Below, piece after piece: positions 1 through 34,768 of a DNA stretch of 36,756 bases (its first letter is position 1; each line of letters starts with the position of its first letter). The notes beneath the pieces were generated by a model. That model was not told where the DNA came from and made no database searches. It saw only the letters and a list, made by a program, of their open reading frames with translations. Origin of the DNA: Rhodocyclaceae bacterium (GTDB taxonomy: Bacteria > Pseudomonadota > Gammaproteobacteria > Burkholderiales > Rhodocyclaceae); assembly GCA_036391815.1 (NCBI GenBank), contig DASVZD010000036.1, forward strand, positions 1 to 36,756. The letters run 5' to 3'. The position numbers and the translations under genes were made by a program.

Positions 1-1
1 G

Positions 2-20063: not shown

Positions 20064-20127
20064 CTCCCCTAGTCGAACCGTCAACCCGCCCCTTTGCGGG
20101 CAGTCTCAACAGCAAATGCGGGTCACG

Positions 20128-20311: not shown

Positions 20312-20620
20312 CTAGAAATTGAACAGTCGGTCGACGGACAGTACCTTGAACAGTCTCAATACCTTGTCGTTGCAGTTCCGGACCACCATTTCCTTGCCGC
20401 GCTCCTCGCAGAACTTGTGCCACGCGACGAGGGTCCCGATACCGCAGCTGTCCACATAGTCCACCGCCGAGAGATTGAGCACGATCCGGTCCGTCGCGGG
20501 ATCGTTCAGCAGTTGCACGAAAGGCACGCGAAATTTCGCGGAACTGGTGAAGTCGAAGCTCGCGGGAAGGTCGATGTGGGCCGCTTCCGCAGAAGCCAAA
20601 GTGGGACTCGCAGCTAGCAT
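20312..20620 (-). CDS. STAS-domain protein (SpoIIAA/RsbV-like anti-sigma-factor antagonist), 102 aa
   Basis: C-terminal part of track ORF 20312..20731. The internal ATG at 20620 is preceded by GGAGG (20631-20627, 6-nt spacer). The sequence ...RIVLNLSAVDYVDSCGIGTLVAWHKFCEERGKEMVVRNCNDKVLRLFKVLSVDRLF matches the STAS pattern. Ser58 in VDSCG (codon 20449-20447) aligns with the phosphorylatable Ser of RsbV/SpoIIAA. Confidence 0.8.
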   Translation of the reverse strand: MLAASPTLASAEAAHIDLPASFDFTSSAKFRVPFVQLLNDPATDRIVLNLSAVDYVDSCGIGTLVAWHKFCEERGKEMVVRNCNDKVLRLFKVLSVDRLFNF

Positions 20621-20860
20621 GATTGGCCTCCTTGTTTGGCGCGCCGCAATACCCATGAGAGTGAGCGCGGCGAGGGTCGAAACGACAAGTCCACGATAGT
20701 GCGTTTGCCCGCTTTTGCCACTATGCCGCACACGTACGGCTTTCGGCGTAGTCCTTGCACCGATCGCGAAATCATCCGATTCCCGTCGCCGAGCACTGGC
20801 GATCGGTTCGCGAGTGGGCTACGTTGATGGTTCCCGAAGCAACGCCGGGTCGCAACGACG

Positions 20861-23524
20861 ATGCGCGATATCCACCTGAAGAGTGCCGCCCAGCCGAACC
20901 TGGCGCGAATGCGCCTGGCGATGAAGAACGCCGGCACCACACGCCGTCTGCGCGGCTCTCGCCACCGCAAGGAAGCTGCCGGCGCCGCGCAGTTCGACCC
21001 GGTGCGCCACGAATACACCGCGGCCGTCGAGATGATCCACACCGTGCTGGCATCGGAAGGCGCCATTCCCGACTCGCGCGTGCGCTACTGGGTGCAACCG
21101 TTCAGCAAGGTGAGCGGCGACTTCTTCTGCCACGCAGTGCACGAGAAGCGCGGCTGGTTCGGTCTGTTCGCCGATGCCGCCGGCCACGGGCTGCCGGCCG
21201 CCATCTATGCGCTGCACATCCCCGTGCTGTTTCGCGAAGCGGTGCTGCTCGGCATGCCGCTCGCCGGCATCTACGACCACCTCAACCGCTTCCTGCTGCG
21301 CCAGCAAGTGTTCAGCGAATACGTGTGCGGCGCACTCGTGCACATCCATGAACGCGAGGTGGCCGTCATCAACGCCGGCGTGCCTGAAGTCCTGCTGACC
21401 TCCCACGAGGGCCGCATCCTCGAGACCTTCGGACCCAGGCGCTTTCCCATGGGCATCCGCCCGACCGAAGGAGACATCGAACCGCAGCGCTACCGGCTGC
21501 CCCGCGACCAGCACGGTTCGCTGTTCCTCTGCTCGGATGGGCTCGCTGAACTCGGCATCCGCTGCGGCGCCGAGGGACTGGGCATCAAGCGCATACGCAA
21601 GGCGCTCAGCGAAGGCACCGAGGAGGCGTTCGAACGGCTGAAGGCCGAGGCCACGCGCCATGCGGACTGCGTCCATGACGACGTCAGCCTGGCGCTGGTG
21701 CCGGTGCCGCTCGCCCGCTGCGACCTCGCGGCCGACGAGGAGCTGTCTCCGGCGCCGCGGCTGCAGGTGGCCGAAGTGATGCCGCGCATCGTGGAGAGCC
21801 TCGAATACGGCGTCTTCCTGACGGACGCCGATCTGCGCATCCTCTACGCCAATCCATCGCTGGCGGCGGCGACCGGCCTCGCCGCCGACGGCATCGTCGG
21901 CAAGTCGCCCAGCATGCTGCACGCGGGGCGGCGGCGCGAGGAGCTGTTCGACTCGATGCAGCGGTCATTGCGCGACGAAGGGCACTGGAGTGCCGAGGTG
22001 TGGAACCGCGACGCCAACGGAGCGCTGCGCCCCTATCGCATGGTGCTCGACGCGCTGCCCGGGGATGACGGCGGCATCGGCCACTTTCTCGGCACCTACA
22101 CCGCGATCGAGTCCGCCAAGGGCACGGGCGAGGCGGCCTACGGCTCGCTGACGCTGCCCGACCCGCTCACCGGCCTGCCCAGCCGCGACCTGCTCAACGA
22201 CCGCGGCCAGGTCGCCGTCGCCCGCACGCACCGCGGCTCGCGCAGCCTGGCGGTGCTGTTCATCGATCTCGACCGCTTCTCGTCCATCAACGAAAGCCTC
22301 GGCCTCGACGTCGGCGACGAAGTGCTGCTGGTCGCCGCGCGAAGGCTGGCGAGCACCCTGCGCGAGGACGACACCATCTCGCGCTACGGCAACGACGAGT
22401 TCGTCTGCCTGCTGTCCGACATCGCCGAGCAGCACGATGCCGCCATCGTCGCTCACAAGGTGCTGGCGGCCCTCGCCGAGCCGATCAGCGTCGTCGGCCA
22501 TGCCATCAAGATCGGGGCCTCCATCGGCGTCAGCATCCTGTCGCGGGATTGCAGTTCCTTCGAGGACCTCATCGTGCAGGCGGCGCGCGCCATGCACCGT
22601 TCGCGCGAAGCGGGCGGCAACCTGGTCACCTTCTTCGACGCCGAGATGGACAAGTCGATGGGCCGCCACTTCGACCTCGAAACGCGCCTCAACTCGGCCG
22701 TGGACGCCGGGCAGCTCGAGGTCTTCCTGCAGCCGAAGGTCGATCTCTCCGAGGGCGGCATCATCGGCGCGGAAGCGCTGGTCCGCTGGCGCGATCCGCA
22801 AGAGGGCCTGGTGTCGCCCGGACTGTTCATCCCGATCGCGGAGAAGAGCGACTTGATCTCGCGCATCGGCCAATGGGTGCTCAATCGCGTGTGCGCGCTG
22901 CTGGCCGAGCGCCATGCCGACCTGCCGCAGCACTTCCATATCGCGGTCAACGTGTCGCCCAAGCAGTTCGAGCGCGACGACGTGGCAGGGACGGTGGCGC
23001 AGGCGCTGCGCGATACCGGCGTGCCGCCGCAGCGGCTGCAGATCGAGGTCACCGAATCGATGTTCATCCGCGACATCCAGCGCGTCGTGCAGACGCTCAA
23101 CGACATCGTCGGACTGGGCGTCACCGTGGCGCTCGACGACTTCGGCACCGGCTACTCCAATCTCGCCTCCCTGAGCCGCCTGCCGCTCGGCACCTTCAAG
23201 CTCGACCAGAGCCTGGTGCGCGGCGTCGACCGCGATTCCTCGAATGCCTCGATCGCGCGCTCGGTCTGGCATCTCGCCGACGGGCTCAACAAGGAGCTGG
23301 TGGCGGAAGGCATCGAGACCTGCGCCGAATGCAGCCACCTGAAGGGAATCGGCTATCGGCTCGGCCAGGGATACCGTTTCGGCAAGCCGATGCCCGAAGA
23401 GGAATTCTTCTCCCATCTGGGCGCATGGTCGTCGACTTGCAGATGTCCGGGCCAGGAACCGGAATGCGCGGGCGGCTGCTGCAGCGGGCAGTGCATCCGC
23501 GCATCGGACGCTCCGCTCCAATAG
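20861..23524 (+). CDS. Multidomain signalling protein: PP2C/SpoIIE-type phosphatase, PAS, GGDEF (degenerate GNDEF, I-site kept), EAL (catalytic motifs intact)
   Basis: PP2C motifs: SGDFFCHAV, LFADAAGHGLPAA, LFLCSDGLAEL, HDDVSLALV. PAS: IVESLEYGVFLTDADLRILYANPS.... GGDEF domain: LTGLPSRDLL...REDDTISRYGNDEF (REDD 22361-22372, GNDEF 22388-22402). EAL domain: GAEALVRW, NVSPKQF, EVTES, DDFGTGYSNL, KLDQS, EGIET, GQGYRFGKP. The start could be ATG 20861, 20909 or 20921. Confidence 0.9.
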   Translation: MRDIHLKSAAQPNLARMRLAMKNAGTTRRLRGSRHRKEAAGAAQFDPVRHEYTAAVEMIHTVLASEGAIPDSRVRYWVQPFSKVSGDFFCHAVHEKRGWFGLFADAAGHGLPAAIYALHIPVLFREAVLLGMPLAGIYDHLNRFLLRQQVFSEYVCGALVHIHEREVAVINAGVPEVLLTSHEGRILETFGPRRFPMGIRPTEGDIEPQRYRLPRDQHGSLFLCSDGLAELGIRCGAEGLGIKRIRKALSEGTEEAFERLKAEATRHADCVHDDVSLALVPVPLARCDLAADEELSPAPRLQVAEVMPRIVESLEYGVFLTDADLRILYANPSLAAATGLAADGIVGKSPSMLHAGRRREELFDSMQRSLRDEGHWSAEVWNRDANGALRPYRMVLDALPGDDGGIGHFLGTYTAIESAKGTGEAAYGSLTLPDPLTGLPSRDLLNDRGQVAVARTHRGSRSLAVLFIDLDRFSSINESLGLDVGDEVLLVAARRLASTLREDDTISRYGNDEFVCLLSDIAEQHDAAIVAHKVLAALAEPISVVGHAIKIGASIGVSILSRDCSSFEDLIVQAARAMHRSREAGGNLVTFFDAEMDKSMGRHFDLETRLNSAVDAGQLEVFLQPKVDLSEGGIIGAEALVRWRDPQEGLVSPGLFIPIAEKSDLISRIGQWVLNRVCALLAERHADLPQHFHIAVNVSPKQFERDDVAGTVAQALRDTGVPPQRLQIEVTESMFIRDIQRVVQTLNDIVGLGVTVALDDFGTGYSNLASLSRLPLGTFKLDQSLVRGVDRDSSNASIARSVWHLADGLNKELVAEGIETCAECSHLKGIGYRLGQGYRFGKPMPEEEFFSHLGAWSSTCRCPGQEPECAGGCCSGQCIRASDAPLQ

Positions 23525-23615: not shown

Positions 23616-24761
23616 GTGGTCATCGTCGGCGGCGGCTTGGCGGGCCTGGCTCTCGCCGTTGCCATGCGCACGGCGCGCCTGCGCGTCGCGCTGGTGGAGA
23701 GCCAGCCGGTGCCCGCGAGGCACGACGGCTGGGACGCGCGCGTCTATGCCATCAGCCCCGCCAACGTCCGCTTCCTGGAGCAGATCGGCGTCTGGCGCCG
23801 CCTCGATGCCGCGCGCATGGCGCCCATCGCCGCCATGGAGATCCACGGCGACCGCGGCGGGCGTCTCGACTTCTCCGCCGGCGCCGTCGGCGTCCCGGCA
23901 CTCGCCTGGATCGTCGAGTCGTCGCTGATGCAGCGCGAGCTCCTCGCATCGGCGAAGCGACAGTCGAATCTCGAGTTGCTCTGCCCGGCGCGGCCCGCCC
24001 GCCTGTCGTTCGCGGCCGACCGCGCGACGCTGCACCTGCAAGACGGGCGCACGCTGGCCGCGAAGCTGGTCGTGGCGGCCGACGGTGCCGATTCCTGGAC
24101 CCGCCGGGCCGCCGGCATCGAGGTCGCGTTCCACCCCTACCGCCAGCATGGCGTCGTCGCCAACTTCGCCTGCGAGCGGCCGCCCGCGGGCATGGCCTGC
24201 CAGTGGTTCCGCGACGGCGGGACCCTGGCCTACCTGCCGCTGCCGGGGAAGCTGATGTCGATGGTGTGGGCGACCTCGCCCGAGCATGCGGCGCAACTGC
24301 TGGCCCTCGACGCCGCCGGGCTCTGCGCGCGGGTGGCCGAGGCCGGCCGGCACCGCTTCGGTTCGCTGGCGCCGCTCACGCCGCCGGCGGCCTTCCCGCT
24401 GCGCCTGATGCGCGCACCCGGCGTCGTGGCGCCGCACCTCGCCCTCATCGGCGACGCCGCCCACACCATCCATCCGCTCTCGGGCCACGGCATCAACCTC
24501 GGCTTCCAGGATGCGCGCGTGCTGGCCGAGGTGCTGGCGGCCTGTCCCGGCCATGTCCATTGCGGCGACGTACGGTGGCTGCGGCGCTACGAGCGCCTCC
24601 GCAGGGAAGAGGTGGTCGCGCTACAATCGGTCACCGACGGCTTGCAGAAGTTGTTCGCCCACCGCGGCCAGCCGGTTTCCCTGCTGCGCAATTTCGGCCT
24701 GACCCTCACCAACCATCTTCCCTTCGTGCGCAATGCGCTGGCGCGCTACGCGATGGGCTGA
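23616..24761 (+). CDS. UbiH/UbiF/VisC/COQ6-family FAD-dependent monooxygenase (ubiquinone-biosynthesis hydroxylase type)
   Basis: VIVGGGLAGLALA dinucleotide-binding motif; VVAADGADS; GDAAHTIHPLSGHGINLGFQDA. The track start is GTG 23616, inside the first beta strand (upstream in frame: ALDFDV). The true start may be a non-canonical codon just upstream: GGAGG at 23594-23598, then CTG at 23604. Confidence 0.85.
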   Translation: MVIVGGGLAGLALAVAMRTARLRVALVESQPVPARHDGWDARVYAISPANVRFLEQIGVWRRLDAARMAPIAAMEIHGDRGGRLDFSAGAVGVPALAWIVESSLMQRELLASAKRQSNLELLCPARPARLSFAADRATLHLQDGRTLAAKLVVAADGADSWTRRAAGIEVAFHPYRQHGVVANFACERPPAGMACQWFRDGGTLAYLPLPGKLMSMVWATSPEHAAQLLALDAAGLCARVAEAGRHRFGSLAPLTPPAAFPLRLMRAPGVVAPHLALIGDAAHTIHPLSGHGINLGFQDARVLAEVLAACPGHVHCGDVRWLRRYERLRREEVVALQSVTDGLQKLFAHRGQPVSLLRNFGLTLTNHLPFVRNALARYAMG

Positions 24762-24777
24762 CACTACCGGAGACTCC

Positions 24778-25494
24778 ATGATCAAACGTATTCTGCTGGC
24801 CGTCCTGGCCGCCGCCTGGATGCTGGCCGCCCACGCGCAGACCGGCGACACGGCCGACATCAAGAAGGCGGTCGAGGCCTCGCTCGGCAAGGGCACCAAG
24901 GTCGACAGCGTGCGCGAAGCCGGCGTGCTCGGCCTCTATGAAGTCGTCGTCGGCGGCGAGATCCTGTACACCGACAAGAAGGCCAGCCACTTCTTCATCG
25001 GCGAGATCATGGACGCCAAGACGCACCGCAACCTCACCGAGGACCGCAAGAACAAGCTGGCGCAGATCAAGTTCAGCGACCTGCCGTTCGACCTCGCCAT
25101 CAAGCAGGTGCGCGGCAACGGCAAGCGGGTCTTCGCCACCTTCGAGGATCCGCACTGCGGCTACTGCAAGAAGCTCGCGCACGAACTGAAGGGCATGAAC
25201 GACGTCACCATCTACACCTTCCTGTTCCCGATCCTGTCGCCCGACTCGACCGAGAAGTCGAAGGGCATCTGGTGCGCGCCGGACCGCGCCAAGGCCTGGA
25301 ACGACTGGATGCAGAACGGCGTCGAGCCGCCGGTCGGCAAGTGCGACGCGCCGATCGAGAAGGTGCTGGCCCTGGGCCGCAAGCTGAACATCCGCGGCAC
25401 CCCGACCATCTTCTTCCCCGACGGCAGCCGCGTGCCCGGCTTCATTCCGGCCGCCGCCATCGAGCAGTCGCTGGCCAAGGCCGGCGGCGGCTAA
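24778..25494 (+). CDS. dsbC: Thiol:disulfide interchange protein DsbC (periplasmic disulfide isomerase)
   Basis: ATG 24778 follows GGAG. Signal peptide MIKRILLAVLAAAWMLAAHA; dimerisation-domain-like N-terminus; CGYC active site in FEDPHCGYCKKL; GTPT cis-Pro loop (IRGTPTIFF). The 15-codon extension in the track overlaps the end of the preceding gene and is rejected. Confidence 0.85.
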   Translation: MIKRILLAVLAAAWMLAAHAQTGDTADIKKAVEASLGKGTKVDSVREAGVLGLYEVVVGGEILYTDKKASHFFIGEIMDAKTHRNLTEDRKNKLAQIKFSDLPFDLAIKQVRGNGKRVFATFEDPHCGYCKKLAHELKGMNDVTIYTFLFPILSPDSTEKSKGIWCAPDRAKAWNDWMQNGVEPPVGKCDAPIEKVLALGRKLNIRGTPTIFFPDGSRVPGFIPAAAIEQSLAKAGGG

Positions 25495-26918
25495 CGCCGC
25501 AGCAGCAGGGGCCGCAGCCGCTGATCGAAGCGCGCCTCCCACGGCGCGTCCGCTTCGTCGGCATGCGCGAGCCGGGCCTCCGGCTCGCCGGCCAGCAGCG
25601 CGCTCAGGCTGAAGTACTTGGCCTCGCGCGCGGATCCGAGCCGGCGCTGCAGCTTCCCTTCGAGGCCGCTCCAGCGGAACAGCTGGAGCCCGCGGCCGCT
25701 GTCGCCGAACTCGACGGCAAGCACGTCGTCGATGCGCAGCAGCAGCGCGGCCTCGTCGTCGCCCGCCGCATCGGTCAGCAGCAGGCAGCCGGCCGACCGG
25801 CGGACGAAGCGGCCCTGGCGGTTGTCGCGCCGCTCCATGGCCTTGCTGTCCAGCCCGATCCAGAGCGAGGTGATGAACGGCGCGTAGCGCTGCCAGTAGG
25901 CGGCGCGCCGGTCGTCGGCGTCGGCGGAATGCAGGCGGAAGAACTGCGCGATCAGCCAGTCCTTGAGCCAGCCGTTGACCATTTCGCGCGCCAGCTCGTC
26001 CGGCTTGCCCTGCGCGTCGAGCACCTGCGCATCCCACGCCGGCCTGCGCTGCCAGGGATTGCCGATGGCGGCGATGGCGGCGTCGAGCAGCGCTTCGTGG
26101 CGCCCCACGGTCTCGCAGCGCGCGTGGCGCGACAGGTAGAGCGCCACGCAGCGCTGCGCCAGGCGCGCGGATACCTCGACCCCGGCCTTCCCTGCCGCGA
26201 TGTCGAGCAGCTGGGGCAGCACCGCCAGCCACTCGCTGTCGGGTAGCGCCGCCGCCGCCTTCGCCTGCGCCAGCACGGCTTCCTGCTTCACCCACGAATC
26301 GGCGGGGATCGCCAGGCCGTCGATGACCGCCTGCAGCTCGCCGGCATCGCCGCGCAGCAGCGCCGGACCGTAGCGCTCGCACGGCGATTCGCCGAGCAGA
26401 TTGAGATGCCTGCCGAGCAGCGTGAACCAGGTCGGCCTCCCGCCGCCGCCCGAAAGCAGCTGGCCATAGCGGCGCGCCAGCCAGCCGCGCAGCGCCTCCA
26501 TGCCGATCGCCGCCGCCGGCGCCTCCTGGTAGCGCGGAAACGACCAGTAGCCGCGCAGCAGTGCCTGGAAGCACTTGAGCTGCCGGCGCGCGCCCGGGAC
26601 CGTCTCGGCGAGATCGAACAGCCGGGCACGCAAGGCAGGCTCGGCCAGCAGGCAGCGGCCCTCGGCATCGAGCGTGGCCGCGCCGAGGCAGACGTAGCGC
26701 AGTTGCGCGAGGTCGGCGACCTTCGAGCGCCGCCGGAAGGCCGCCACTGCCCGCGAAATCCTGTCCGCGGCGACCGGCCGTCCCGCCGCGTTGTCGTGGC
26801 GCCGCCGCACGTCCTCGAGCGCTGCCGTCATCGCCCGCGGCTCGCCCCAGCCGGCGGCGCGGCCGAGTTCGAGCGCGCCCGCCAGCCGGGCCCGCAGCGC
26901 ATCGATCGCCGGCCTCAC
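25491..26918 (-). CDS. zorC: ZorC-like protein (candidate EH-signature domain), 475 aa
   Basis: GTG at 26918-26916 overlaps the zorB stop (GTGA, 26918-26915). The longer track ORF (to 27242) would run inside zorB with an Arg/Pro-rich prefix. The C-terminal region reads RRAAYWQRYAPF...LLRIDDVLAVEFGDSGRGLQLFRW...ARLAHADEADAPWEARF (Glu codon 25712-25710, His codon 25565-25563). This fits my memory of the EH-signature domain, and the gene occupies the third position after zorA and zorB. The family call is not verified by any search. Confidence 0.6.
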   Translation of the reverse strand: MRPAIDALRARLAGALELGRAAGWGEPRAMTAALEDVRRRHDNAAGRPVAADRISRAVAAFRRRSKVADLAQLRYVCLGAATLDAEGRCLLAEPALRARLFDLAETVPGARRQLKCFQALLRGYWSFPRYQEAPAAAIGMEALRGWLARRYGQLLSGGGGRPTWFTLLGRHLNLLGESPCERYGPALLRGDAGELQAVIDGLAIPADSWVKQEAVLAQAKAAAALPDSEWLAVLPQLLDIAAGKAGVEVSARLAQRCVALYLSRHARCETVGRHEALLDAAIAAIGNPWQRRPAWDAQVLDAQGKPDELAREMVNGWLKDWLIAQFFRLHSADADDRRAAYWQRYAPFITSLWIGLDSKAMERRDNRQGRFVRRSAGCLLLTDAAGDDEAALLLRIDDVLAVEFGDSGRGLQLFRWSGLEGKLQRRLGSAREAKYFSLSALLAGEPEARLAHADEADAPWEARFDQRLRPLLLRR

Positions 26919-27634
26919 GCCTTGTCGAGCGGGCACTTGGGATCCTCGTCCCAGGGAATTTCCGGCGGGCTTTCCTGCTTCTCGTCCAGTTCGCGGAATT
27001 CCATCTTCAACTCGACGCGGCGGCTCTCCTCGGCGCTGGCCTTCAGCGCGTTGAACGACGAGCCGCCGACGAGGAACAGCTTGCGTATGGTGCGGCGATC
27101 GTCCCGGCTGGGCGCATCCGCCGCCTGGGGGTCGAGCAGCACGCACAGCACGCGCTGCGAGCGCTGCAGGCTCAGGTTGAGGTTGTAGAGATACGAGCCT
27201 TCCTGGCTCGCGAAGCCTTCGACGACGACGCGCTTGAGCCACTTGCCGCAGTTGCCGCCGCGCGCGACTTCCACCATCTGCGGCACGAAGCGCCGCAAGA
27301 AGCTGCGCCGTTCGGGGCTGAGGTCATAGCCGCGCCGCTCGAACTCGGCCAGCGCGCCGAATTCGATCGAGTTCTCCCTGACCCGCACGCCGCTGAACTC
27401 CGGCCTCGCGGCCAACGCGGCCATGTCCGCCATGCAGGCCTTGATCGCTTCCTGCCGCGCCTGCTTCTGCGCCTCGACGCGCTGCAGTCCCTGCGTCACC
27501 GCCATCAGCGCCACCGCCATGGCGACCAGGAACAGCACCATCAGCGCCGTCATCAGGTCGGAGAACGAAATCCAGAAGGGCTTCTCGGCCGGGTCGCGCG
27601 CCGGCCGCCGCGGCAGCGTCTTCAGTCCGATCAC
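26915..27634 (-). CDS. zorB: ZorB-like MotB/OmpA-family stator protein, 239 aa
   Basis: GTG 27634 overlaps the zorA stop (GTGA). A single TM with the conserved Asp: KPFWISFSDLMTALMVLFLVAMAV (D26, codon 27559-27557). OmpA-like peptidoglycan-binding C-terminal part: VVVEGFASQEGSYLYNLNLSLQRSQRV. Confidence 0.8.
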   Translation of the reverse strand: MIGLKTLPRRPARDPAEKPFWISFSDLMTALMVLFLVAMAVALMAVTQGLQRVEAQKQARQEAIKACMADMAALAARPEFSGVRVRENSIEFGALAEFERRGYDLSPERRSFLRRFVPQMVEVARGGNCGKWLKRVVVEGFASQEGSYLYNLNLSLQRSQRVLCVLLDPQAADAPSRDDRRTIRKLFLVGGSSFNALKASAEESRRVELKMEFRELDEKQESPPEIPWDEDPKCPLDKA

Positions 27635-29529
27635 GAGGACGCCTTTGGCCGCGCCGGGATGTCCTCGATCAGGTCGCCGAGGTCCTGGATGGCGCCGGAG
27701 AGCAAACCGACCGCCTGCGACAGCTCGGCCTGGAACTGCCGGTTGCTCTCGCGCAACGTGCGCTCGATGCCGTCGGCGAACGACTGGTGCGCCTGCACCA
27801 GCACGTCATTGACGCCGCGCAGGTAATCCTCGGCCTTGCGCTGGGCCGCCGAGAGCTGTGCCGCCGCGCCGTGCAGCCGGTCGACCAGCTCGGCGCTGAC
27901 CGAGGCGTCGCGCTTCGCGGTCTCCACCGTGGCCCGCAGATCGGACACCAGGGCCGCGAACACCTCATGGGCCTGCACGTGCGTCTCCAGCGCACGCTGC
28001 GAGGCGACCGTGGCGGCGGACAGCGCGTTGGCGGCGAAGCTGATGGTCTCCGTCGCGCCCTCGGCGGCATGCAGGGTCTGGGTGACGCCCTGCCCCGCCT
28101 GCGCGAAGTCCCGGGCCGCCGTGGCCAGCGTGTCGGCACCGGCGTTCATGCCCGCGATGGCGTCCGCCGTCGCGGCGCCCAGCCGGTCGACCGCCGCCTG
28201 CACCGATTGGCTCGCCTCGATGGAGCGCGCGATCAGGCGCTCCATCTGGCCGGCCATGCTGCCGACGGCGTCGCCCGCCTGGCTGGCGATGCGCTCCGCC
28301 TGCTGCTGCTGGACCTCGGTGGTCGTGCGCGTCTGGTCCTGCAGCTGCTGGACGGCGACCGCCACCCGGTCGCCCAGCCTCGCCAGCGCGGCCTCCAGCA
28401 TCTCGCCCGATTGCGACTGCGCCTGCAGGGTCGCCGCGCGCATCTGCGCGACGAATTCCGCCATCTGGCGGACGGCGTCCTGCTGGCGTTCGCCGGTCGT
28501 GGCCACGGCGGCGTTGGTCCGCTGCAGCAGTTCGCTGCTGTCGCGCATCTGCGCCGCGAATAGGCCCTGCATCTGCGCGCTGAAGCCGGCCAGCACCTCG
28601 GCCACCATCCGGCCGACCACCTGCTCCTGGCGCGCGGTGACCGTGTCGACGGCGCGCGCGATGTTCTCGATCGGCTGCCCGAGGCGCTCGCCGACGATGC
28701 GCCCGATGTCGGCGGCCAGCTGCTCGCCGTGGCGCGCCGAGGCATTCACCTGCCGCGTGCTCACCTCGGTGAAGATCTCGCGCAGCTGGTCGGCCAGCGC
28801 GTCCTTGATGCGCTCGGCCTGCGCCGCCGAGGTCTCGGCCGCCACCACCAGGCGCTCGAGGTACTCGTAGTCGGCGCCGACGTCGAACATGCCGTCGATC
28901 AGCTCGCGCAGCTGCTCGACCTGCCGGTAGCGCAGGGTCAGCATCGACTTCTCGACCCAGGTGAACAGCATCGCCAGGGTGATCGCCACGGCGGAGACGA
29001 AGAAGGCGTGGCCGACCGAGTTGATCAGGTTGCGCAGCTGCGTCTGCGCCTGGTTCGGGTCGAGCGACACGTCGAAGTTCACCAGCCCGATGATGAGCCC
29101 GGTGAAGGTGCCGATGATGCCCAGGCCGGTGAGGATGCCGGGGAGATGCTTGTAGAACTCGGTCTTGAGCGGCGAGTCGACCAGCGCCTCCTCGCTGAAG
29201 AACGAGGCCGCCAGCGTCGTGGCGCGCCAGCGCTGGCGCCCCGCCTCGGCCTGCGGGTGCAGGGTCTGCCGGTATTCCTGCCAGAGGTGGGCCAGGCGCG
29301 GCGGCTTCATCGCGGTCGCCGCGATGTCGTCGATGGCGGCCGCGCTGCCGTCGGCGCGCGTCTCCTTGATCACCCGCAGCGCCTCGACGGCGTCGCCGAG
29401 TTCCACGCCCAGCCGCAGCGAGGGGAGCACGAAGCGGAACAGGAAACCGATGGCGATGCCCGCCAGCAGAACGCCGACGGCCCAGGCATACCAGTAGTGG
29501 ATCAGCAGTTCCAGCGGCGATTCCGTCAT
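27631..29529 (-). CDS. zorA: ZorA-like MotA/ExbB-family proton-channel protein with a long C-terminal helical tail, 632 aa
   Basis: Three predicted TM helices (YWYAWAVGVLLAGIAIGFLF; LPGILTGLGIIGTFTGLIIGLV; VGHAFFVSAVAITLAMLFTWV, the MotA_ExbB signature region). They are followed by about 400 aa of Ala/Gln/Glu/Arg-rich, apparently coiled-coil sequence. The gene is followed by coupled MotB-like and EH-like genes. Confidence 0.8.
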   Translation of the reverse strand: MTESPLELLIHYWYAWAVGVLLAGIAIGFLFRFVLPSLRLGVELGDAVEALRVIKETRADGSAAAIDDIAATAMKPPRLAHLWQEYRQTLHPQAEAGRQRWRATTLAASFFSEEALVDSPLKTEFYKHLPGILTGLGIIGTFTGLIIGLVNFDVSLDPNQAQTQLRNLINSVGHAFFVSAVAITLAMLFTWVEKSMLTLRYRQVEQLRELIDGMFDVGADYEYLERLVVAAETSAAQAERIKDALADQLREIFTEVSTRQVNASARHGEQLAADIGRIVGERLGQPIENIARAVDTVTARQEQVVGRMVAEVLAGFSAQMQGLFAAQMRDSSELLQRTNAAVATTGERQQDAVRQMAEFVAQMRAATLQAQSQSGEMLEAALARLGDRVAVAVQQLQDQTRTTTEVQQQQAERIASQAGDAVGSMAGQMERLIARSIEASQSVQAAVDRLGAATADAIAGMNAGADTLATAARDFAQAGQGVTQTLHAAEGATETISFAANALSAATVASQRALETHVQAHEVFAALVSDLRATVETAKRDASVSAELVDRLHGAAAQLSAAQRKAEDYLRGVNDVLVQAHQSFADGIERTLRESNRQFQAELSQAVGLLSGAIQDLGDLIEDIPARPKASS

Positions 29530-29620
29530 CGGCTCGGTTCTTGTCGGCGTACCGGGCGCAGTATACCGAGGGCCGACCGGCGTATCCTCCGGCCTCGACC
29601 CTGCTGAGAGCGAGGAAAGC

Positions 29621-30100
29621 GTGAACCGATACCTGCTGCTGCTGGAAACCCTTTACGCCGTGGCCAAGAAGACGCGCGTCGACGGGCTCAAGTCGCTCGT
29701 CAAGCATCTCGACGATCCGGCCCGCTCGCTGTTCTTCTCGGCGGCCATGGCCCAGGAACCGGCCGCCACCGCCTTCATGTGCGATTCGCTGCAGATGGTC
29801 GCCGCCGGCATGAGCCTGGACGAAGTGACGTTCTACATGGACGGCTACCGCCTGCGCCTGATCAGCGCCGACAAGGCGGACAGCCACCTGGTCAACCTGG
29901 TGTTCCGCACGGTGTGGGCGATCGCCCATTCGGGCTGGGACCCGATCGCCTGCACGGAATTCGGCCGCGCCGCCGTTCCCGCCGCCCAGTCGATGGGCCG
30001 CAAGGAATGGATCGCCTACTGCAACAGCCTGGAGATCGAGCGCACCCAGACCAACATCAACTGGGACGCGCTGCTGAAGGAAATCAAGCCGGGCGCCTAG
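29621..30100 (+). CDS. Soluble 159-aa protein resembling the cytoplasmic portions of MotA, with all transmembrane helices missing
   Basis: GTG 29621 is preceded by GAGGA (29612-29616). There is no hydrophobic stretch long enough for a TM helix. An ungapped match to the E. coli MotA loop (recalled sequence, residues ~82-148): LYAVAKKTRVDGLKSLVKHLDDPARSLFF...FMCDSLQMVAAGMSLDEVTFYMD against LYRLMAKSRQMGMFSLERDIENPRESEIF...FIVDYLRLIISGHMNTFEIEALMD. A second match, SGWDPIACTEFGRA against NGYAPPIAVEFGRK, aligns with the MotA C-terminal cytoplasmic segment. Confidence 0.7.
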   Translation: MNRYLLLLETLYAVAKKTRVDGLKSLVKHLDDPARSLFFSAAMAQEPAATAFMCDSLQMVAAGMSLDEVTFYMDGYRLRLISADKADSHLVNLVFRTVWAIAHSGWDPIACTEFGRAAVPAAQSMGRKEWIAYCNSLEIERTQTNINWDALLKEIKPGA

Positions 30101-30114
30101 CGGCGCCGCGAAAG

Positions 30115-30140
30115 ACAAGGCCCGGCGGTCCGGGCCTTGT
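30115..30140. terminator. Bidirectional stem-loop between the convergent 159-aa gene and csbD
   Basis: acaaggcccgg (30115-30125), loop cggt, ccgggccttgt (30130-30140): a perfect 11-bp stem. On the minus strand it is followed by TCTTTCG. Confidence 0.55.
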
Positions 30141-30145
30141 TGCCG

Positions 30146-30319
30146 CTAGTGCTTCTTGGCGTCTTCCTTGAGGTCGCCGTAATCGCGCTGGATGCGGCCT
30201 TCCACCTGCTTCTTGGCGCCCTTGAGCTGCTGTTCGGTGCTGCCGGTCATCTCGCCGGTCTTCTGCTGCACCTTGCCGGCGACGTGCTTCGTCGCACCCT
30301 TCACTTGGTCCTTGTTCAT
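30146..30319 (-). CDS. csbD: CsbD-family general stress protein, 57 aa
   Basis: Internal ATG 30319 with GGAG upstream. MNKDQVKGATKHVAGKVQQKTGEMTGSTEQQLKGAKKQVEGRIQRDYGDLKEDAKKH is the typical CsbD pattern (KG..K...G......TG......G......G..Q..YG). Confidence 0.85.
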   Translation of the reverse strand: MNKDQVKGATKHVAGKVQQKTGEMTGSTEQQLKGAKKQVEGRIQRDYGDLKEDAKKH

Positions 30320-30726: not shown

Positions 30727-31323
30727 TCAGCCCGCCCCGGCCGCCGAGAAGACGTCGATGCCTGCCAGGCGCACCAACTTTTCGATGCTCGCCGGGACGT
30801 TCTCGATCCGCTTGCCGCGTTCCAGCGCGATGATCAGGAAACCCGCGCCGGCCAGTTCCATGCCGAGACAGCGGGAGAGGTCGATGGCGGCGATGTCCGG
30901 CCGCCGGATCAGGCGCATCGCGCGGATGGCGACCGCCATGGTCAGCATCCCCACGACGCAGATCGTCGGGCCCTGCAGGCGGATCGCGCCGCCGACCTTG
31001 CGCAGCCCGGCGAAGAAGTCGGCGGGCATCGACGGTACGGTCATGCCCAGTTCGACGCGCGTGCCGAGGACCTTCGAGCGGATGATGCTGACGTCGAACC
31101 GGAAGTCGCCGGCCGTGACGCTGGCATCGTGGCCGACGCGCAGGCGCAACTGCCCCTTGCGGGTCACGAAGCAGCAGCCGTTCGTCGATACGTCGTTCAG
31201 GTAGCCGGATGCCGTTTGGCCGTCGCCCGTGGTCAGGACGGCTTCGCATTTCCCGATGGAGATCAGGTAGCGGTCGCCGCTCCGTGCATCGGCGGGCGGG
31301 GGAGCATTCTTGGATTCGTTCAC
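30727..31323 (-). CDS. PilZ-domain protein with a STAS-like C-terminal domain; start uncertain
   Basis: Both PilZ c-di-GMP-binding motifs are intact: RSGDR (RxxxR, 31284-31270) and DVSTNG (DxSxxG, 31194-31177). The C-terminal ~95 aa (IRLQGPTICVVGMLTMAVAIRAMRLIRRPDIAAIDLSRCLGMELAGAGFLIIALERGKRIENVPASIEKLVRLAGIDVF) resemble a STAS/MlaB-like fold. The track start (TTG 31455) overlaps the next gene's RBS and start. GTG 31323 is taken as a provisional start. Confidence 0.65.
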   Translation of the reverse strand: MNESKNAPPPADARSGDRYLISIGKCEAVLTTGDGQTASGYLNDVSTNGCCFVTRKGQLRLRVGHDASVTAGDFRFDVSIIRSKVLGTRVELGMTVPSMPADFFAGLRKVGGAIRLQGPTICVVGMLTMAVAIRAMRLIRRPDIAAIDLSRCLGMELAGAGFLIIALERGKRIENVPASIEKLVRLAGIDVFSAAGAG

Positions 31324-31454
31324 AGCAGGTACAGGGCTGTCCGGGGACGGCGGGCAGTCTATCAGCAAAGGCCATATCCGCCGGGAGGACCAGCCGCCGT
31401 CATCGCCGGCCAAAGGCCGGTTCCTAGAATGTCCCAACCAAAGGGAGGACCGCA

Positions 31455-32558
31455 ATGGGCCTGTTGCGATGGTGGCTGGTTGCGCTGGCGCTGCTTTCCA
31501 ACATCGCCGCGGCGGCGCCCCGGTTGCCGCTCGATCGCATCAGGCTGCCGCCCGGCTTTGCCATCGAGCTTCTCGCCCGTGTCCCGAACGCGCGGGAAAT
31601 GGCGCTCGGCGACAAGCGCGTGCTGTTCGTCGGTTCGATGGACGCCGGCAAGGTGTTCGCGCTGGAACTGGACGACCGGTATCGGGCCGGCCCGCTGCAC
31701 GTCGTCGCCAGCGGCCTCGAGATGCCGGTGGGCGTCGCCTATCGCGACGGCAGCCTCTACGTCTCGGCGGTCAGCCGCATCCTTCGCTTCGATCGCATCG
31801 TCGAGCGGCTGGACGATCCGCCCCAGCCAGTGGTGGTGCGCGGCGACTTTCCCGCCGAGAAGGCGCACGGATGGAAGTTCATCGCCTTCGGTCCGGACGG
31901 CTGGCTCTACGTTCCCGTCGGCGCGCCGTGCAACATTTGCGCGCCGGACCCCGATCGCTACGCCGTCATCATGCGGATGAAGCCCGACGGCTCGCGGCTG
32001 GAAACCTTCGCACGCGGCATCCGCAATAGCGTGGGCTTCGACTGGCATCCGGCGACGCACGAACTTTGGTTCACCGACAACGGCCGCGACTGGCTGGGCG
32101 ACGACCGGCCGCCGGACGAGCTCAACCGGGCGCCCCGCCCGGGCATGCACTTCGGCTATCCCTATTGCCATGCCGGAATTGCCGATCCCGAATTTGGCGC
32201 CGGGCATGCGTGCCGCGAATTCACGCCGCCGGTCCAGCCTCTCGGACCGCACGTCGCGGCGCTTGGCATGCGGTTCTACACGGGACGGCAATTTCCGGCC
32301 GAATATCGAAATGCGATCTTCATCGCGGAGCACGGTTCCTGGAACCGTTCCCGCAAGATCGGCTATCGGGTTAGCGTGGTCAGACTCGATGGCGACCGCC
32401 CGCTCTCCTATGCCGCCTTCGCCTCGGGTTGGCTGCAAGGACAGCAAGCCTGGGGACGGCCGGCCGACGTGCTGGTGCTGCCCGATGGTTCGCTGCTGGT
32501 GTCCGACGACTATGCCGGTGCGATCTATCGGATCCGCTATGGCGCCGGCAAGCAATAA
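31455..32558 (+). CDS. PQQ-dependent sugar dehydrogenase (soluble aldose / sorbosone dehydrogenase, YliI-like beta-propeller), secreted
   Basis: Strong RBS AAGGGAGGA (31441-31449). Signal peptide MGLLRWWLVALALLSNIAAAAP. Family-typical stretches: GWKFIAFGPDGWLYVPVGAPCN, ARGIRNSVGFDWHP.T.ELWFTDNGRDWLGDD.PPDELN, GMHFGYPYCH, PHVAALGMRFY. Confidence 0.85.
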   Translation: MGLLRWWLVALALLSNIAAAAPRLPLDRIRLPPGFAIELLARVPNAREMALGDKRVLFVGSMDAGKVFALELDDRYRAGPLHVVASGLEMPVGVAYRDGSLYVSAVSRILRFDRIVERLDDPPQPVVVRGDFPAEKAHGWKFIAFGPDGWLYVPVGAPCNICAPDPDRYAVIMRMKPDGSRLETFARGIRNSVGFDWHPATHELWFTDNGRDWLGDDRPPDELNRAPRPGMHFGYPYCHAGIADPEFGAGHACREFTPPVQPLGPHVAALGMRFYTGRQFPAEYRNAIFIAEHGSWNRSRKIGYRVSVVRLDGDRPLSYAAFASGWLQGQQAWGRPADVLVLPDGSLLVSDDYAGAIYRIRYGAGKQ

Positions 32559-33613: not shown

Positions 33614-34768
33614 TTGGAGGTAGCCGCCTTGGCCCACCGGATCATCACCAACGAGATCCACGTCGGCAAGCCCTTGCCGTGGAACGTCTTCGATGCGGGC
33701 GGCGTACTGCTGCTGAGGCGCGGCGTCGTCATCACCTCCCAACATGCGCTCGACCGCCTGATCGAAGAGGGCATCTATCTCGACGAGCAGGATTCGCAGG
33801 GACTCGGCCGCAGCGGGCCGGCAGCGGTCGCGGAGCCGGAGAAGCCGAGCGCGCTGCAGCTGGTCACCGACGCCCGGCGGCTGTTCGGCACGCTGCTCAA
33901 CGAACTGCGCAGCGTTTCCGATTTCCCGGCGCGCATCCGCCGCATCGCGCTGCTGGTCGACCTCGCCTGCCAGACCAACCCGGAAGTCGCGCTCGCCACC
34001 ATCCTGCTGCTGCAGGACGACAGCTACGCCGTGCGCCACCACCTGAACACGGCGATCATGGCGAACCTGCTGTGCCGCGCCATGGCGCTGCCGGACGAGC
34101 AGGCGCAGGCGGTGCTGGCCGCCGCGCTGACCATGAACGCCAGCATGTACGAGGTGCAGGACAAGCTGAACGACGTCAAGGGTCCGCTGAACGACAAGCT
34201 GCGCGCGCTGATCGCGTCGCATCCCGAGCAGAGCGAGCAGCGCCTGCGCCAGCTGGGCGTCGCCGACGCGCTGTGGCTGCGCTGCGTCGCGCAGCATCAT
34301 GAGTGCGAGAACGGCGCCGGCTATCCCGGGCACCTGACGGGGGACGCCATCGAGCAGGGCGCCAAGATCATCGGCCTCGCCGACCGCTACTGCGCGCAGG
34401 TGTCGAATCGCCACTACCATCCGGCGCGCGCGCCCGGCATCGTGTTGAAGGAACTCTATGCGGAGAAGGGCGCCGAGATCGATACGACCGTCGCCGCCCA
34501 CCTGGTGCGCGTCGTCGGGATCTATCCGCCGGGCACCATCGTGCGCCTGAAGAACGGCGAAGTCGCCGTGGTGGTCGCGCCCACCGACAACGCGGACAGC
34601 CCGCTCGCCTGCGCCGTGCTCGGCGCCAACCGCATCGCGTTCACCGTGCCGGCGATGCGCAAGACCATCAAGAGCGACTTCAAGATCACCGAAGTGATGA
34701 CGCTCGACAAGATCGATTTCCCGATCCAGATGTCGCGGATCTGGGGAGACGCGGCGCGGATCGGCTGA
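33614..34768 (+). CDS. HD-GYP-family protein with a degenerate metal site (MN-GYP) and a DUF3391-like N-terminal domain
   Basis: HHECENGAGYPGHL (GYP codons 34319-34327) and the first His (SYAVRHHLNTA) are present. The LHDIGK position reads LTMNAS (Met-Asn codons 34133-34138). The N-terminus IHVGKPLPWNVFDAGGVLLLRRGVVITSQHALDRLIEEGIYLD fits the usual HD-GYP N-terminal module. The track start is TTG 33614. TTG 33629 has a better RBS (GGAGG 33616-33620, 8-nt spacer). Confidence 0.8.
   Translation: MEVAALAHRIITNEIHVGKPLPWNVFDAGGVLLLRRGVVITSQHALDRLIEEGIYLDEQDSQGLGRSGPAAVAEPEKPSALQLVTDARRLFGTLLNELRSVSDFPARIRRIALLVDLACQTNPEVALATILLLQDDSYAVRHHLNTAIMANLLCRAMALPDEQAQAVLAAALTMNASMYEVQDKLNDVKGPLNDKLRALIASHPEQSEQRLRQLGVADALWLRCVAQHHECENGAGYPGHLTGDAIEQGAKIIGLADRYCAQVSNRHYHPARAPGIVLKELYAEKGAEIDTTVAAHLVRVVGIYPPGTIVRLKNGEVAVVVAPTDNADSPLACAVLGANRIAFTVPAMRKTIKSDFKITEVMTLDKIDFPIQMSRIWGDAARIG

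What the first reader, a model, noticed from the sequence alone, without database searches (positions are those of the whole stretch)
29621..30100. TM-less MotA: a soluble protein that looks like the MotA cytoplasmic loop fused to the MotA C-terminal segment
The 159-aa product aligns without gaps to my recalled E. coli MotA residues ~82-148 (LY..AK.R..G..SL.....P..S..F ... F..D.L.....G.M...E....MD). This includes an Arg at the position of MotA R90, one of the rotor (FliG)-contacting charges. It then aligns to the post-TM4 segment (G..P.IA.EFGR). The four TM helices that form the channel are simply absent. I do not know of a described family of free-standing MotA cytoplasmic domains. It is transcribed divergently from zorA (91-bp spacer), next to a MotA-family motor of a defence-type system, in a window with no flagellar genes. 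Possible roles are a decoy or regulator for a MotA-interacting partner, or an accessory or adaptor component of the ZorAB-like complex. The role is pure inference.
Basis: partly seen in the sequence, partly recalled or inferred. Interest (0 to 1): 0.7.

Follow-up and report, generated by a model that had tools for sequence, protein, structure and literature searches.

The report
Soluble, membrane-less copy of MotA's cytoplasmic domain
This small gene encodes only the cytoplasmic, rotor-facing part of the flagellar stator protein MotA, with all four membrane helices missing; it belongs to a conserved family that no library tested describes, and its position next to a Zorya defence motor looks like lineage-specific synteny, not a functional link.

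Summary
Window 29621-30100 (+) is a real 159-aa gene. It has GC3 of 0.92, dN/dS of 0.12-0.5 against 10 orthologues, a Shine-Dalgarno (SD) sequence and a strong terminator hairpin. A profile of the stand-alone family that includes it aligns to MotA, E. coli MotA included, as residues 71-156 plus 231-286, with one gap over TM3-TM4 (hhalign E 2.5e-30). TM1-TM2 are also absent and no membrane segment is predicted. Arg19 matches MotA R90, but the E98 position is hydrophobic in this subfamily.

About 18 orthologues exist, all 158-195 aa, from Rhodocyclaceae and Sterolibacterium genome bins (MAGs). A wider stand-alone family of about 20 clusters also exists. No Pfam, NCBIfam, PADLOC or PHROGs model covers either.

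The Zorya link is weak. Only one closely related clade has the gene beside zorABC, and there the whole neighbourhood is syntenic. More distant orthologues sit in at least four other contexts without Zor genes; one lies just downstream of a YcgR-type PilZ gene. Distant family members are fused to, or directly follow, FliG_C-like proteins.

Best reading, by inference: a soluble mimic of the stator's rotor-facing surface that binds a MotA partner (FliG or a YcgR-type brake). It is a new variant of a known kind and of moderate to high interest.

The parts
29621..30100 (+). Gene for the 159-aa TM-less MotA cytoplasmic-domain protein. Residues ~3-82 correspond to the MotA loop 74-156 (five predicted helices). 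Residues 83-87 are a new turn where the TM3-TM4 hairpin would be. Residues 88-145 correspond to the MotA post-TM4 segment 231-286. Residues 146-159 are a subfamily-specific tail.
29612..29616 (+). Shine-Dalgarno-like GAGGA, 4 nt before the GTG start. The CGAGG core is invariant in the six Zor-linked orthologous loci.
29558..29588 (.). Conserved elements in the 91-bp divergent intergenic region: GCAGTATACCGA (29558-29569; reads TATACT on the minus strand, -10-like for zorA) and GTATCCT (29582-29588; TATCCT, -10-like for the + strand gene). Both are invariant in all six Zor-linked loci and absent upstream of the orthologues that lack Zor. Reading them as promoters is inference; the consensus sigma-70 scan found nothing.
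30097..30149 (.). Strong GC-rich hairpin between the convergent ends of this gene and csbD. It looks like a bidirectional terminator (dG -36.2 kcal/mol, z -4.7), so the gene appears monocistronic.
27631..29529 (-). Context only: zorA (632 aa), divergently transcribed.
26915..27634 (-). Context only: zorB.
25491..26903 (-). Context only: zorC (EH-signature protein). The true start is probably near 26903, not the 27242 of the maximal ORF. No zorD follows; dsbC (24733-25494, +) converges on it.
30727..31455 (-). Context only: 242-aa ORF with a weak PilZ match (17 bits, below the cut-off). Its L005 orthologue passes the PilZ cut-off and has a STAS-like C-terminus. Present in the window and L005 only.

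Best explanation
Shown: the gene encodes a soluble, all-helical paralogue of the cytoplasmic torque-generating domain of flagellar MotA. It consists of the TM2-TM3 loop joined directly to the post-TM4 segment. TM1-TM2 and the TM3-TM4 channel hairpin are absent. The gene is kept intact under purifying selection in a group of Rhodocyclaceae and Sterolibacterium genomes.

Inferred: without a channel or a MotB partner it cannot be a motor, so it must act by protein binding. It keeps most of the helix that full-length MotA presents to the rotor and to brake proteins: K16-K17-x-R19(=R90)-x-x-G22(=G93)-x-x-S25(=S96). It also keeps the conserved EFGR core.

The most likely mode of action is as a free mimic of the stator's cytoplasmic face. 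It would bind a natural MotA ligand, either FliG's C-terminal domain or a YcgR-type c-di-GMP brake, and so tune stator-rotor engagement or titrate the brake. The position next to zorABC is most likely inherited synteny, not a functional coupling.

Confidence is split. Identity as a TM-less MotA cytoplasmic domain is about 0.95. The decoy or adaptor mechanism at the flagellar motor is about 0.35-0.4.
For: Identity:
- hhalign E 2.5e-30 with a single gap over TM3-TM4, and E 1.5e-20 for the subfamily alone against TM-excised MotA.
- TIGR03818 hit.
- Full-length MotAs recovered from 1.84 billion proteins.
- AF2 model with pLDDT 89.8, all helical, five helices before the junction.
- The top three PDB fold hits are MotA chains.
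- No hydrophobic segment.

Real gene:
- 18 orthologues of 158-195 aa.
- dN/dS 0.12-0.5.
- SD sequence and terminator.

Partner-binding logic:
- R90, G93, S96, P104, S107, D128, P254, E259 and R262 equivalents are conserved.
- In the wider stand-alone family the domain is fused to Pfam FliG_C (P0039, P0046, P0049).
- In that family it is also immediately preceded by a FliG_C-like gene (L016, L023, L024). The MotA-FliG_C pairing therefore persists in soluble form.
- In the Sterolibacterium orthologue locus L021 the upstream gene on the same strand is a YcgR-type PilZNR+PilZ protein.
- The window and L005 carry a PilZ-like gene two genes away.
- The isolated E. coli MotA cytoplasmic domain (residues 70-170) is soluble and binds YcgR in vitro (PMC10140304).
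- R90 and E98 are the FliG-contacting charges (PMC12505986; PMC7564593 abstract).
Against: - The E98-equivalent position is V/S/L in this subfamily, although it is E/D in every MotA and in the distant stand-alone family. The RPSF motif (MotA 270-273) is also lost. The classical two-charge interface with FliG is therefore not intact.
- No FliG_C-like ORF lies in the window or in any orthologous locus.
- Gene contexts of the orthologues are heterogeneous: ArfB/RNase D, Ser/Thr kinase, FMN reductase/deacetylase, YcgR-like/M20 peptidase, ZorABC.
- The YcgR adjacency is a single case found post hoc.
- No flagellar gene was found among the window ORFs I scanned, and I could not check whether these genomes encode flagella.
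- Subfamily-specific invariant His, Cys and Trp residues (H89, H103, C111, C134, W99, W106, W130, W148) suggest a function acquired after divergence from MotA.
Confidence: 0.4

Rival explanations
1. Exapted scaffold. The domain descends from MotA but has acquired a function unrelated to the flagellar motor. It might bind a different partner, or a metal or redox cofactor through the subfamily-specific conserved His/Cys residues. The MotA-like surface would then be only a structural relic.
For: - This subfamily is the most divergent branch: the distant stand-alone family against MotA gives E 1.3e-35, while this subfamily gives 1.5e-20.
- The E98 equivalent and the RPSF motif are lost.
- New invariant residues have appeared: H89, H103, C111, C134, four Trp, and the FYMDGxRxRL...DKADxHLVN junction motif.
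- Contexts are heterogeneous and non-flagellar, including apparent operons with RNase D (L010, L013) and an M20 peptidase (L021), each with a 4-bp overlap.
Against: The R90, G93 and S96 helix and the other MotA-invariant cytoplasmic residues are still strictly conserved, which would be unexpected if that surface had no role. I could not test whether the His/Cys residues cluster in space, because no model coordinates were available.
Confidence: 0.3
2. Zorya accessory. The protein is a component, regulator or cytoplasmic partner of the adjacent ZorD-less ZorABC motor.
For: - Divergent arrangement with a 91-95-bp spacer in all six Zor-linked loci.
- Sequence elements in that spacer are invariant.
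- The locus lacks ZorD, so a non-canonical partner is conceivable (PMC11946911).
Against: - Adjacency is confined to one clade in which DsbC, FAD monooxygenase, GSDH and HTH neighbours are co-linear and equally diverged. Shared descent explains it.
- Every orthologue of 66% identity or less lacks Zor neighbours.
- No PADLOC model matches the protein.
- The distant stand-alone family is not next to Zor genes either.
- ZorA's cytoplasmic domain is described as structurally different from MotA's torque-generating interface (PMC12505986).
Confidence: 0.12
3. Decaying remnant of a disrupted motA gene, or a chance ORF.
For: None beyond the partial MotA similarity.
Against: - Full-length conservation in 18 orthologues across several genera-level lineages.
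- dN/dS well below 1.
- Coding GC3 signature.
- No TM-coding remnants in the flanks.
- Confident compact AF2 fold.
- The same two-deletion architecture in about 20 further clusters.
Confidence: 0.01

Closest known systems
Flagellar stator protein MotA, E. coli type (NCBIfam TIGR03818 'MotA1'; the five-helix 'TGI5' torque-generating interface class of PMC12505986)
   Same: Homologous over the whole cytoplasmic part, MotA 71-156 and 231-286. R90, G93, S96, P104, S107, D128, G251, P254, E259 and R262 equivalents are conserved. Five predicted helices precede the junction, as in TGI5.
   Different: TM1-TM4 are absent, so there is no proton channel, no MotB-binding core and no Pfam MotA_ExbB or MotA_N match. 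The E98 equivalent is hydrophobic and the RPSF motif is lost. There are new invariant His/Cys/Trp residues and a C-terminal tail. It cannot be a stator.
Recombinant MotA cytoplasmic fragment 'MotAc' (E. coli residues 70-170), used in vitro
   Same: A soluble MotA loop domain. It was shown to bind YcgR in a FRET assay (PMC10140304). The natural protein covers the same region.
   Different: MotAc is a laboratory construct. The natural protein also carries the post-TM4 segment, is a separately evolving gene, and its binding partners are untested.
Wider family of stand-alone MotA-cytoplasmic-domain proteins (P0020-P0048, 140-196 aa) and their FliG_C fusions (P0039, P0046/P0049)
   Same: The same two-deletion architecture: hhalign E 6e-25 over 145 columns and alignment A2. 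None matches Pfam above threshold.
   Different: - Only about 25% identical.
- They keep E98 and the RPSF motif.
- They are paired with or fused to FliG_C-like proteins.
- They lie in loci that look like mobile elements or defence islands: integrase, DUF2779, WYL, DnaB, UvrD/PD-(D/E)XK, MZB helicase + PLD.
- Whether the two groups arose from one TM-loss event or two is unresolved.
Type I Zorya (ZorABCD)
   Same: Physical neighbour only. zorA, zorB and zorC are confidently identified next to the gene.
   Different: The protein matches no Zorya model. Its family is mostly not Zor-linked. The local system also lacks ZorD.

Membership tests
MotA/TolQ/ExbB proton-channel family (Pfam PF01618; functional stator subunit) | TM3-TM4 channel-forming hairpin (MotA_ExbB domain) | tested here: not met
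   No PF01618 hit at E<=1. The alignment shows a gap over MotA ~157-230. Kyte-Doolittle maximum is 1.16.
MotA/TolQ/ExbB proton-channel family (Pfam PF01618; functional stator subunit) | N-terminal TM1-TM2 (Pfam MotA_N, PF20560) | tested here: not met
   No PF20560 hit. The protein starts at the MotA residue ~72 equivalent.
MotA/TolQ/ExbB proton-channel family (Pfam PF01618; functional stator subunit) | Adjacent motB/exbD/tolR-type partner gene in the same operon | tested here: not met
   The gene is monocistronic, lying between the divergent zorA and the convergent csbD. zorB belongs to the zorA operon on the other strand.
Flagellar MotA cytoplasmic torque-generating domain (homology at domain level) | Significant profile similarity to the MotA loop and to the post-TM4 segment, collinear | tested here: met
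   hhalign E 2.5e-30 and E 1.5e-20. TIGR03818 E 5.3e-7.
Flagellar MotA cytoplasmic torque-generating domain (homology at domain level) | Both FliG-contacting charges (E. coli R90 and E98) | tested here: not met
   The R90 equivalent (R19) is invariant. The E98 equivalent is V/S/L in this subfamily.
Flagellar MotA cytoplasmic torque-generating domain (homology at domain level) | Fold superposes on the solved MotA cytoplasmic domain | tested here: inconclusive
   The top three Foldseek PDB hits are MotA (8ucs_C, 8gqy_A, 6ykm_A), but with E 0.35-0.63 and TM 0.33-0.36. Those chains are the shorter ~253-255-residue MotAs, and the domain is discontinuous in them.
Flagellar MotA cytoplasmic torque-generating domain (homology at domain level) | Binds FliG C-terminal domain and/or YcgR | not testable with these tools
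   Needs pull-down, two-hybrid or ITC. The only evidence is indirect: FliG_C fusions and adjacency in distant relatives, and a YcgR-type neighbour in L021.
Type I Zorya defence system component | Matches a ZorA/B/C/D model | tested here: not met
   No PADLOC or NCBIfam Zor hit for this protein.
Type I Zorya defence system component | Conserved co-localisation with zorAB across the protein's family | tested here: not met
   Zor-linked only in the clade of 74% identity or more, with whole-neighbourhood synteny. Absent in L002, L010, L012, L013, L021 and L027.

The most novel reading that the evidence does not exclude
The stator-rotor interface may have been lifted out of the flagellum and reused as a free-standing soluble protein-protein module. 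In the wider family it appears as MotA-cytoplasmic-domain / FliG_C-like pairs and fusions in loci that look like mobile elements or defence islands. In this Rhodocyclaceae clade the soluble MotA domain would be the functional cytoplasmic partner of a ZorD-less ZorABC motor. It might, for example, be engaged or released by the rotating ZorA, which would link a Zorya-type sensor to motility or c-di-GMP output instead of to a nuclease.
Probability: 0.08. Interest if true: 0.85.

Novelty: new variant of a known kind. Interest (0 to 1): 0.6.

Why it matters
MotA has been studied as an integral-membrane rotary stator, and its cytoplasmic domain is known in soluble form only as a laboratory fragment. 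A naturally occurring, selectively maintained, soluble copy of exactly that domain would be a ready-made probe of the stator-rotor and stator-brake interfaces. Its relatives fused to or paired with FliG_C-like domains add to this. If it acts as a decoy, it would be a new class of flagellar motor regulator. If it does not, it is a clear case of a motor interface being exapted for another role. It also gives annotators a concrete family: JGI labels some members 'flagellar motor component MotA', which is misleading for a protein that cannot conduct protons.

Tried and rejected
- The PDB sequence-profile search gave no MotA hit; only chance-level cytochrome bc1 matches appeared (E 0.14).
- Pairwise BLASTP against E. 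coli MotA is not significant by itself (E 0.11).
- The Foldseek viral library gave nothing meaningful.
- tblastn of P0024 against 50,697 phage records and of the window protein against 72,556 plasmids gave no match. I therefore do not claim that either family is phage- or plasmid-borne.
- Two metagenome-contig scans found no confirmed relative.
- The viral-contig scan could not be run with the divergent alignment.
- The sigma-70 consensus scan found no promoter in the spacer.
- I looked for FliG_C-like ORFs in the window and all orthologous loci and found none.
- I looked for MotA TM remnants in the flanks and found none.
- I considered that the subfamily-specific His/Cys residues form a metal site. 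I could not test this because model coordinates are not exposed.
- I tried to decide whether this subfamily and the distant stand-alone family share one TM-loss event. Scores against TM-excised MotAs and against the distant family interleave, so this is unresolved.
- Literature searches for a described soluble MotA-domain family, or for FliG-like/MotA-like pairs in phages or defence islands, found nothing relevant. The 2025 MotAB evolution paper does not mention soluble or stand-alone forms.

Full report
**1. What is at the coordinates**

Window 29621-30100 (+) is an ORF of 159 codons that starts at a GTG, the first start after an in-frame stop.
- Codon-position GC is 0.61/0.43/0.92, the same pattern as the confidently identified neighbours in this 66% GC window.
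- A GAGGA Shine-Dalgarno (SD) sequence lies 4 nt upstream.
- A very stable hairpin at 30097-30149 (dG -36.2 kcal/mol, z -4.7) separates the gene from the convergent csbD gene.
- The gene is transcribed divergently from zorA, whose start codon ends at 29529, across a 91-bp spacer.

**2. Is it MotA-like beyond chance? Yes.**

- NCBIfam TIGR03818 (MotA1) matches residues 3-69 to profile positions 74-143 at E 5.3e-7. Pfam, PADLOC and PHROGs give nothing.
- A profile of 18 orthologues, searched against 1.84 billion representative proteins, recovered 31 proteins. These were about 20 stand-alone proteins of 140-196 aa, five full-length MotAs of 281-291 aa hit at their residues ~73-158, and a few fusion proteins. 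Pfam confirmed MotA_N + MotA_ExbB for the two full-length proteins scanned, P0028 and P0043.
- A multiple alignment shows that the stand-alone proteins are MotA minus the first ~73 residues (TM1-TM2) and minus a ~73-column block containing TM3-TM4.
- Profile-profile comparison of the stand-alone family with a MotA alignment headed by E. coli K-12 MotA (fetched from NC_000913.3) gives probability 99.8 and E 2.5e-30. Query 5-146 maps to MotA 71-286 with a single gap over ~157-230.
- The Rhodocyclaceae subfamily alone, against MotA with the TM columns cut out, gives E 1.5e-20 over 139 columns.
- R19 aligns with R90, G22 with G93, S25 with S96, P33 with P104, S36 with S107, D55 with D128, P108 with P254, and E113-F-G-R116 with E259-F-G-R262.
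- The maximum 19-residue hydropathy is 1.16, against 2.2 for E. coli MotA. tblastn with six MotAs finds no TM remnants in the flanks.
- The AF2 model is confident (pLDDT 89.8, pTM 0.81) and all helical. It has five helices before the junction, a short turn at 83-87 where the TM hairpin would be, and four helices after.
- Foldseek against the PDB ranks three MotA chains first (8ucs_C, 8gqy_A, 6ykm_A), but with weak statistics: E 0.35-0.63 and TM 0.33-0.36. The fold evidence agrees with the sequence evidence but is not independent proof.

**3. Is it a functional gene? Yes.**

- Eighteen homologues of 56-89% identity are all 158-195 aa. The longer ones carry non-conserved N-terminal extensions from gene calling.
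- Forty columns are invariant.
- Pairwise dN/dS among 11 orthologues is 0.12-0.5.
- In 185,579 species genomes the subfamily was confirmed in only five MAGs. Three are Rhodocyclaceae and one is Sterolibacterium. The fifth is labelled Ignavibacteria, but its contig is syntenic with the Rhodocyclaceae ones and is probably mis-binned.

**4. The Zorya neighbourhood**

- ZorA (27631-29529), ZorB (26915-27634) and ZorC (25491-~26903) are identified by PADLOC and NCBIfam with strong scores.
- No ZorD is present in the window or within 10 kb in L001. The L019 and L020 flanks were compared only with the window's own proteins, so that search cannot show a ZorD gene is absent there.
- Type I Zorya is defined as ZorABCD, with ZorD as the nuclease (PMC11946911).
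- All orthologues of 74% identity or more have the same arrangement: FAD monooxygenase, DsbC, ZorC-B-A, then the divergent gene, a variable segment, and orf94, GSDH and HTH. Every neighbour is diverged to a similar degree, 65-89%.
- All orthologues of 66% identity or less lack Zor genes. Their contexts are:
  - ArfB - gene - RNase D, with a 4-bp overlap (L010, L013, L014).
  - Convergent with a Ser/Thr kinase (L012, L027).
  - FMN reductase - gene - polysaccharide deacetylase - ProQ (L002).
  - YcgR-type PilZNR+PilZ protein - gene - M20 peptidase (L021).
- The Zor adjacency is therefore one of at least five contexts and is explained by descent within one clade.
- The spacer does contain two invariant motifs, GCAGTATACCGA and GTATCCT. 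They look like the -10 regions of the two divergent promoters and occur only in the Zor-linked loci. This shows conserved regulation of the pair of promoters, not a shared function.

**5. What the wider family adds**

- The distant stand-alone proteins are about 25% identical and keep both R90 and E98 equivalents and the RPSF motif.
- They are fused to Pfam FliG_C in P0039 (FliG_C then MotA-cyt) and in P0046/P0049 (MotA-cyt then FliG_C).
- In L016, L023 and L024 they are immediately preceded by a FliG_C-like gene. L023 carries three further FliG_C-like paralogues.
- Their loci carry an integrase, DUF2779, WYL/WCX, RNase T-like genes, DnaB, UvrD + PD-(D/E)XK, and an MZB helicase + PLD.
- This gene-fusion and adjacency signal shows that the MotA-cytoplasmic / FliG_C partnership has been carried over into soluble proteins.
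- The window's subfamily has no such partner nearby and has replaced E98. It is the more derived branch: the distant family against MotA gives E 1.3e-35, against 1.5e-20 for this subfamily.
- Whether the two groups share one TM-loss event is unresolved.

**6. Mechanism**

Shown: the protein is a soluble MotA cytoplasmic domain with no channel, and it is under selection.

Inferred: it acts by binding.
- The conserved R90-G93-S96 helix is the face that MotA presents to FliG (PMC12505986; PMC7564593 abstract).
- The isolated E. coli MotA cytoplasmic fragment is soluble and binds the c-di-GMP brake YcgR in vitro (PMC10140304).
- There are also the FliG_C fusions in relatives, the YcgR-type neighbour in L021, and a c-di-GMP-rich neighbourhood in the window. 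That neighbourhood has PP2C-PAS-GGDEF-EAL at 20861-23524, a PilZ-like orf242, and an HD-GYP-type protein at 33614-34768.
- Together these make a stator-mimicking decoy or adaptor for FliG or a YcgR-type brake the most likely mechanism. I put it at about 0.35-0.4.

The main rival, at about 0.3, is that the scaffold has been exapted for something else. This is suggested by the lost E98 and RPSF, the new invariant His/Cys/Trp residues and the heterogeneous contexts. A Zorya-accessory role is about 0.12. A pseudogene is about 0.01.

**7. Comparison with what is known, and novelty**

- It works like, and descends from, the MotA torque-generating domain. It fails the defining features of a MotA-family stator subunit: no TM hairpins, no MotB partner, no Pfam MotA_ExbB or MotA_N match. 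It is not a MotA in the functional sense.
- No curated library tested has a model for it.
- The literature I could search does not describe free-standing MotA cytoplasmic domains.
- JGI labels a few members 'flagellar motor component MotA' or 'chemotaxis protein MotA'.
- I rate it a new variant of a known kind, with interest 0.6. The identity is solid and surprising to a motor specialist, and the FliG_C pairing in relatives adds to that. The function remains inferred, and the Zorya angle that made the finding attractive is not supported.

Noticed in passing
L016 7450-8528; L023 5578-11338; L024 8275-10519; proteins P0039, P0046, P0049: In the distant stand-alone MotA-cytoplasmic family, the gene is fused to, or directly follows, a FliG_C-like protein. 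L023 has four FliG_C-like genes around a DnaB gene. The loci carry integrase, DUF2779, WYL/WCX, RNase T-like, UvrD + PD-(D/E)XK and MZB-helicase + PLD genes. This looks like soluble stator/rotor-interface pairs in mobile elements or defence islands. No match was found in the phage genome collection.
   Followed up: partly
window 25491-29529 (and L001, L005, L006, L019, L020): A ZorA-ZorB-ZorC locus without ZorD, flanked by dsbC and conserved in six syntenic genomes at 65-89% protein identity. No ZorD-like gene is in the window or within 10 kb in L001. Canonical type I Zorya needs the ZorD nuclease, so this may be a non-canonical or ZorD-in-trans system.
   Followed up: partly
L021 2272-3273: In a Sterolibacterium MAG, the gene directly upstream on the same strand (400-bp gap) of the MotA-cytoplasmic orthologue is a YcgR-type protein. 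It has PilZNR at E 4e-16 and PilZ at E 5e-9, with a ~118-aa N-terminal extension.
   Followed up: partly
window 30727-31455 (-): A 242-aa ORF with RxxxR and DxSxxG-like motifs and a weak PilZ hit. Its L005 orthologue passes the PilZ threshold and has a STAS-like C-terminus. This would be a PilZ-STAS architecture. It is present only in the window and L005.
   Followed up: partly
window 1-19027 (-): A giant ORF of more than 6,342 codons that runs off the window start. It has CARDB, PPC and Y_Y_Y-type domains and is followed by a HlyD-family membrane-fusion gene (19113-20084, -). It is probably a very large secreted or surface protein with its export system.
   Followed up: partly
window 20312-23524: A STAS-domain gene (20312-20731, -) lies divergent from an 887-aa SpoIIE(PP2C)-PAS-GGDEF-EAL protein (20861-23524, +). 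This is a partner-switching module wired to c-di-GMP turnover. An HD-GYP-type protein lies at 33614-34768.
   Followed up: no
window 29558-29588: Two motifs in the zorA/MotA-cyt spacer, GCAGTATACCGA and GTATCCT, are invariant in six genomes while the rest of the spacer has diverged. GTATAC is palindromic. They could be -10 boxes or an operator.
   Followed up: partly
L019 (JBLNBJ010000082.1): A contig assigned to an 'Ignavibacteria' MAG is syntenic with the Rhodocyclaceae loci, and its proteins are 70-87% identical to the window's. It is probably mis-binned.
   Followed up: no
PHROGs phrog_21194: The distant stand-alone proteins hit positions ~70-155 of a 295-position phage protein family of unknown function. 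The length and the matched positions suggest a phage-encoded full-length MotA homologue, but I did not scan the family itself.
   Followed up: no
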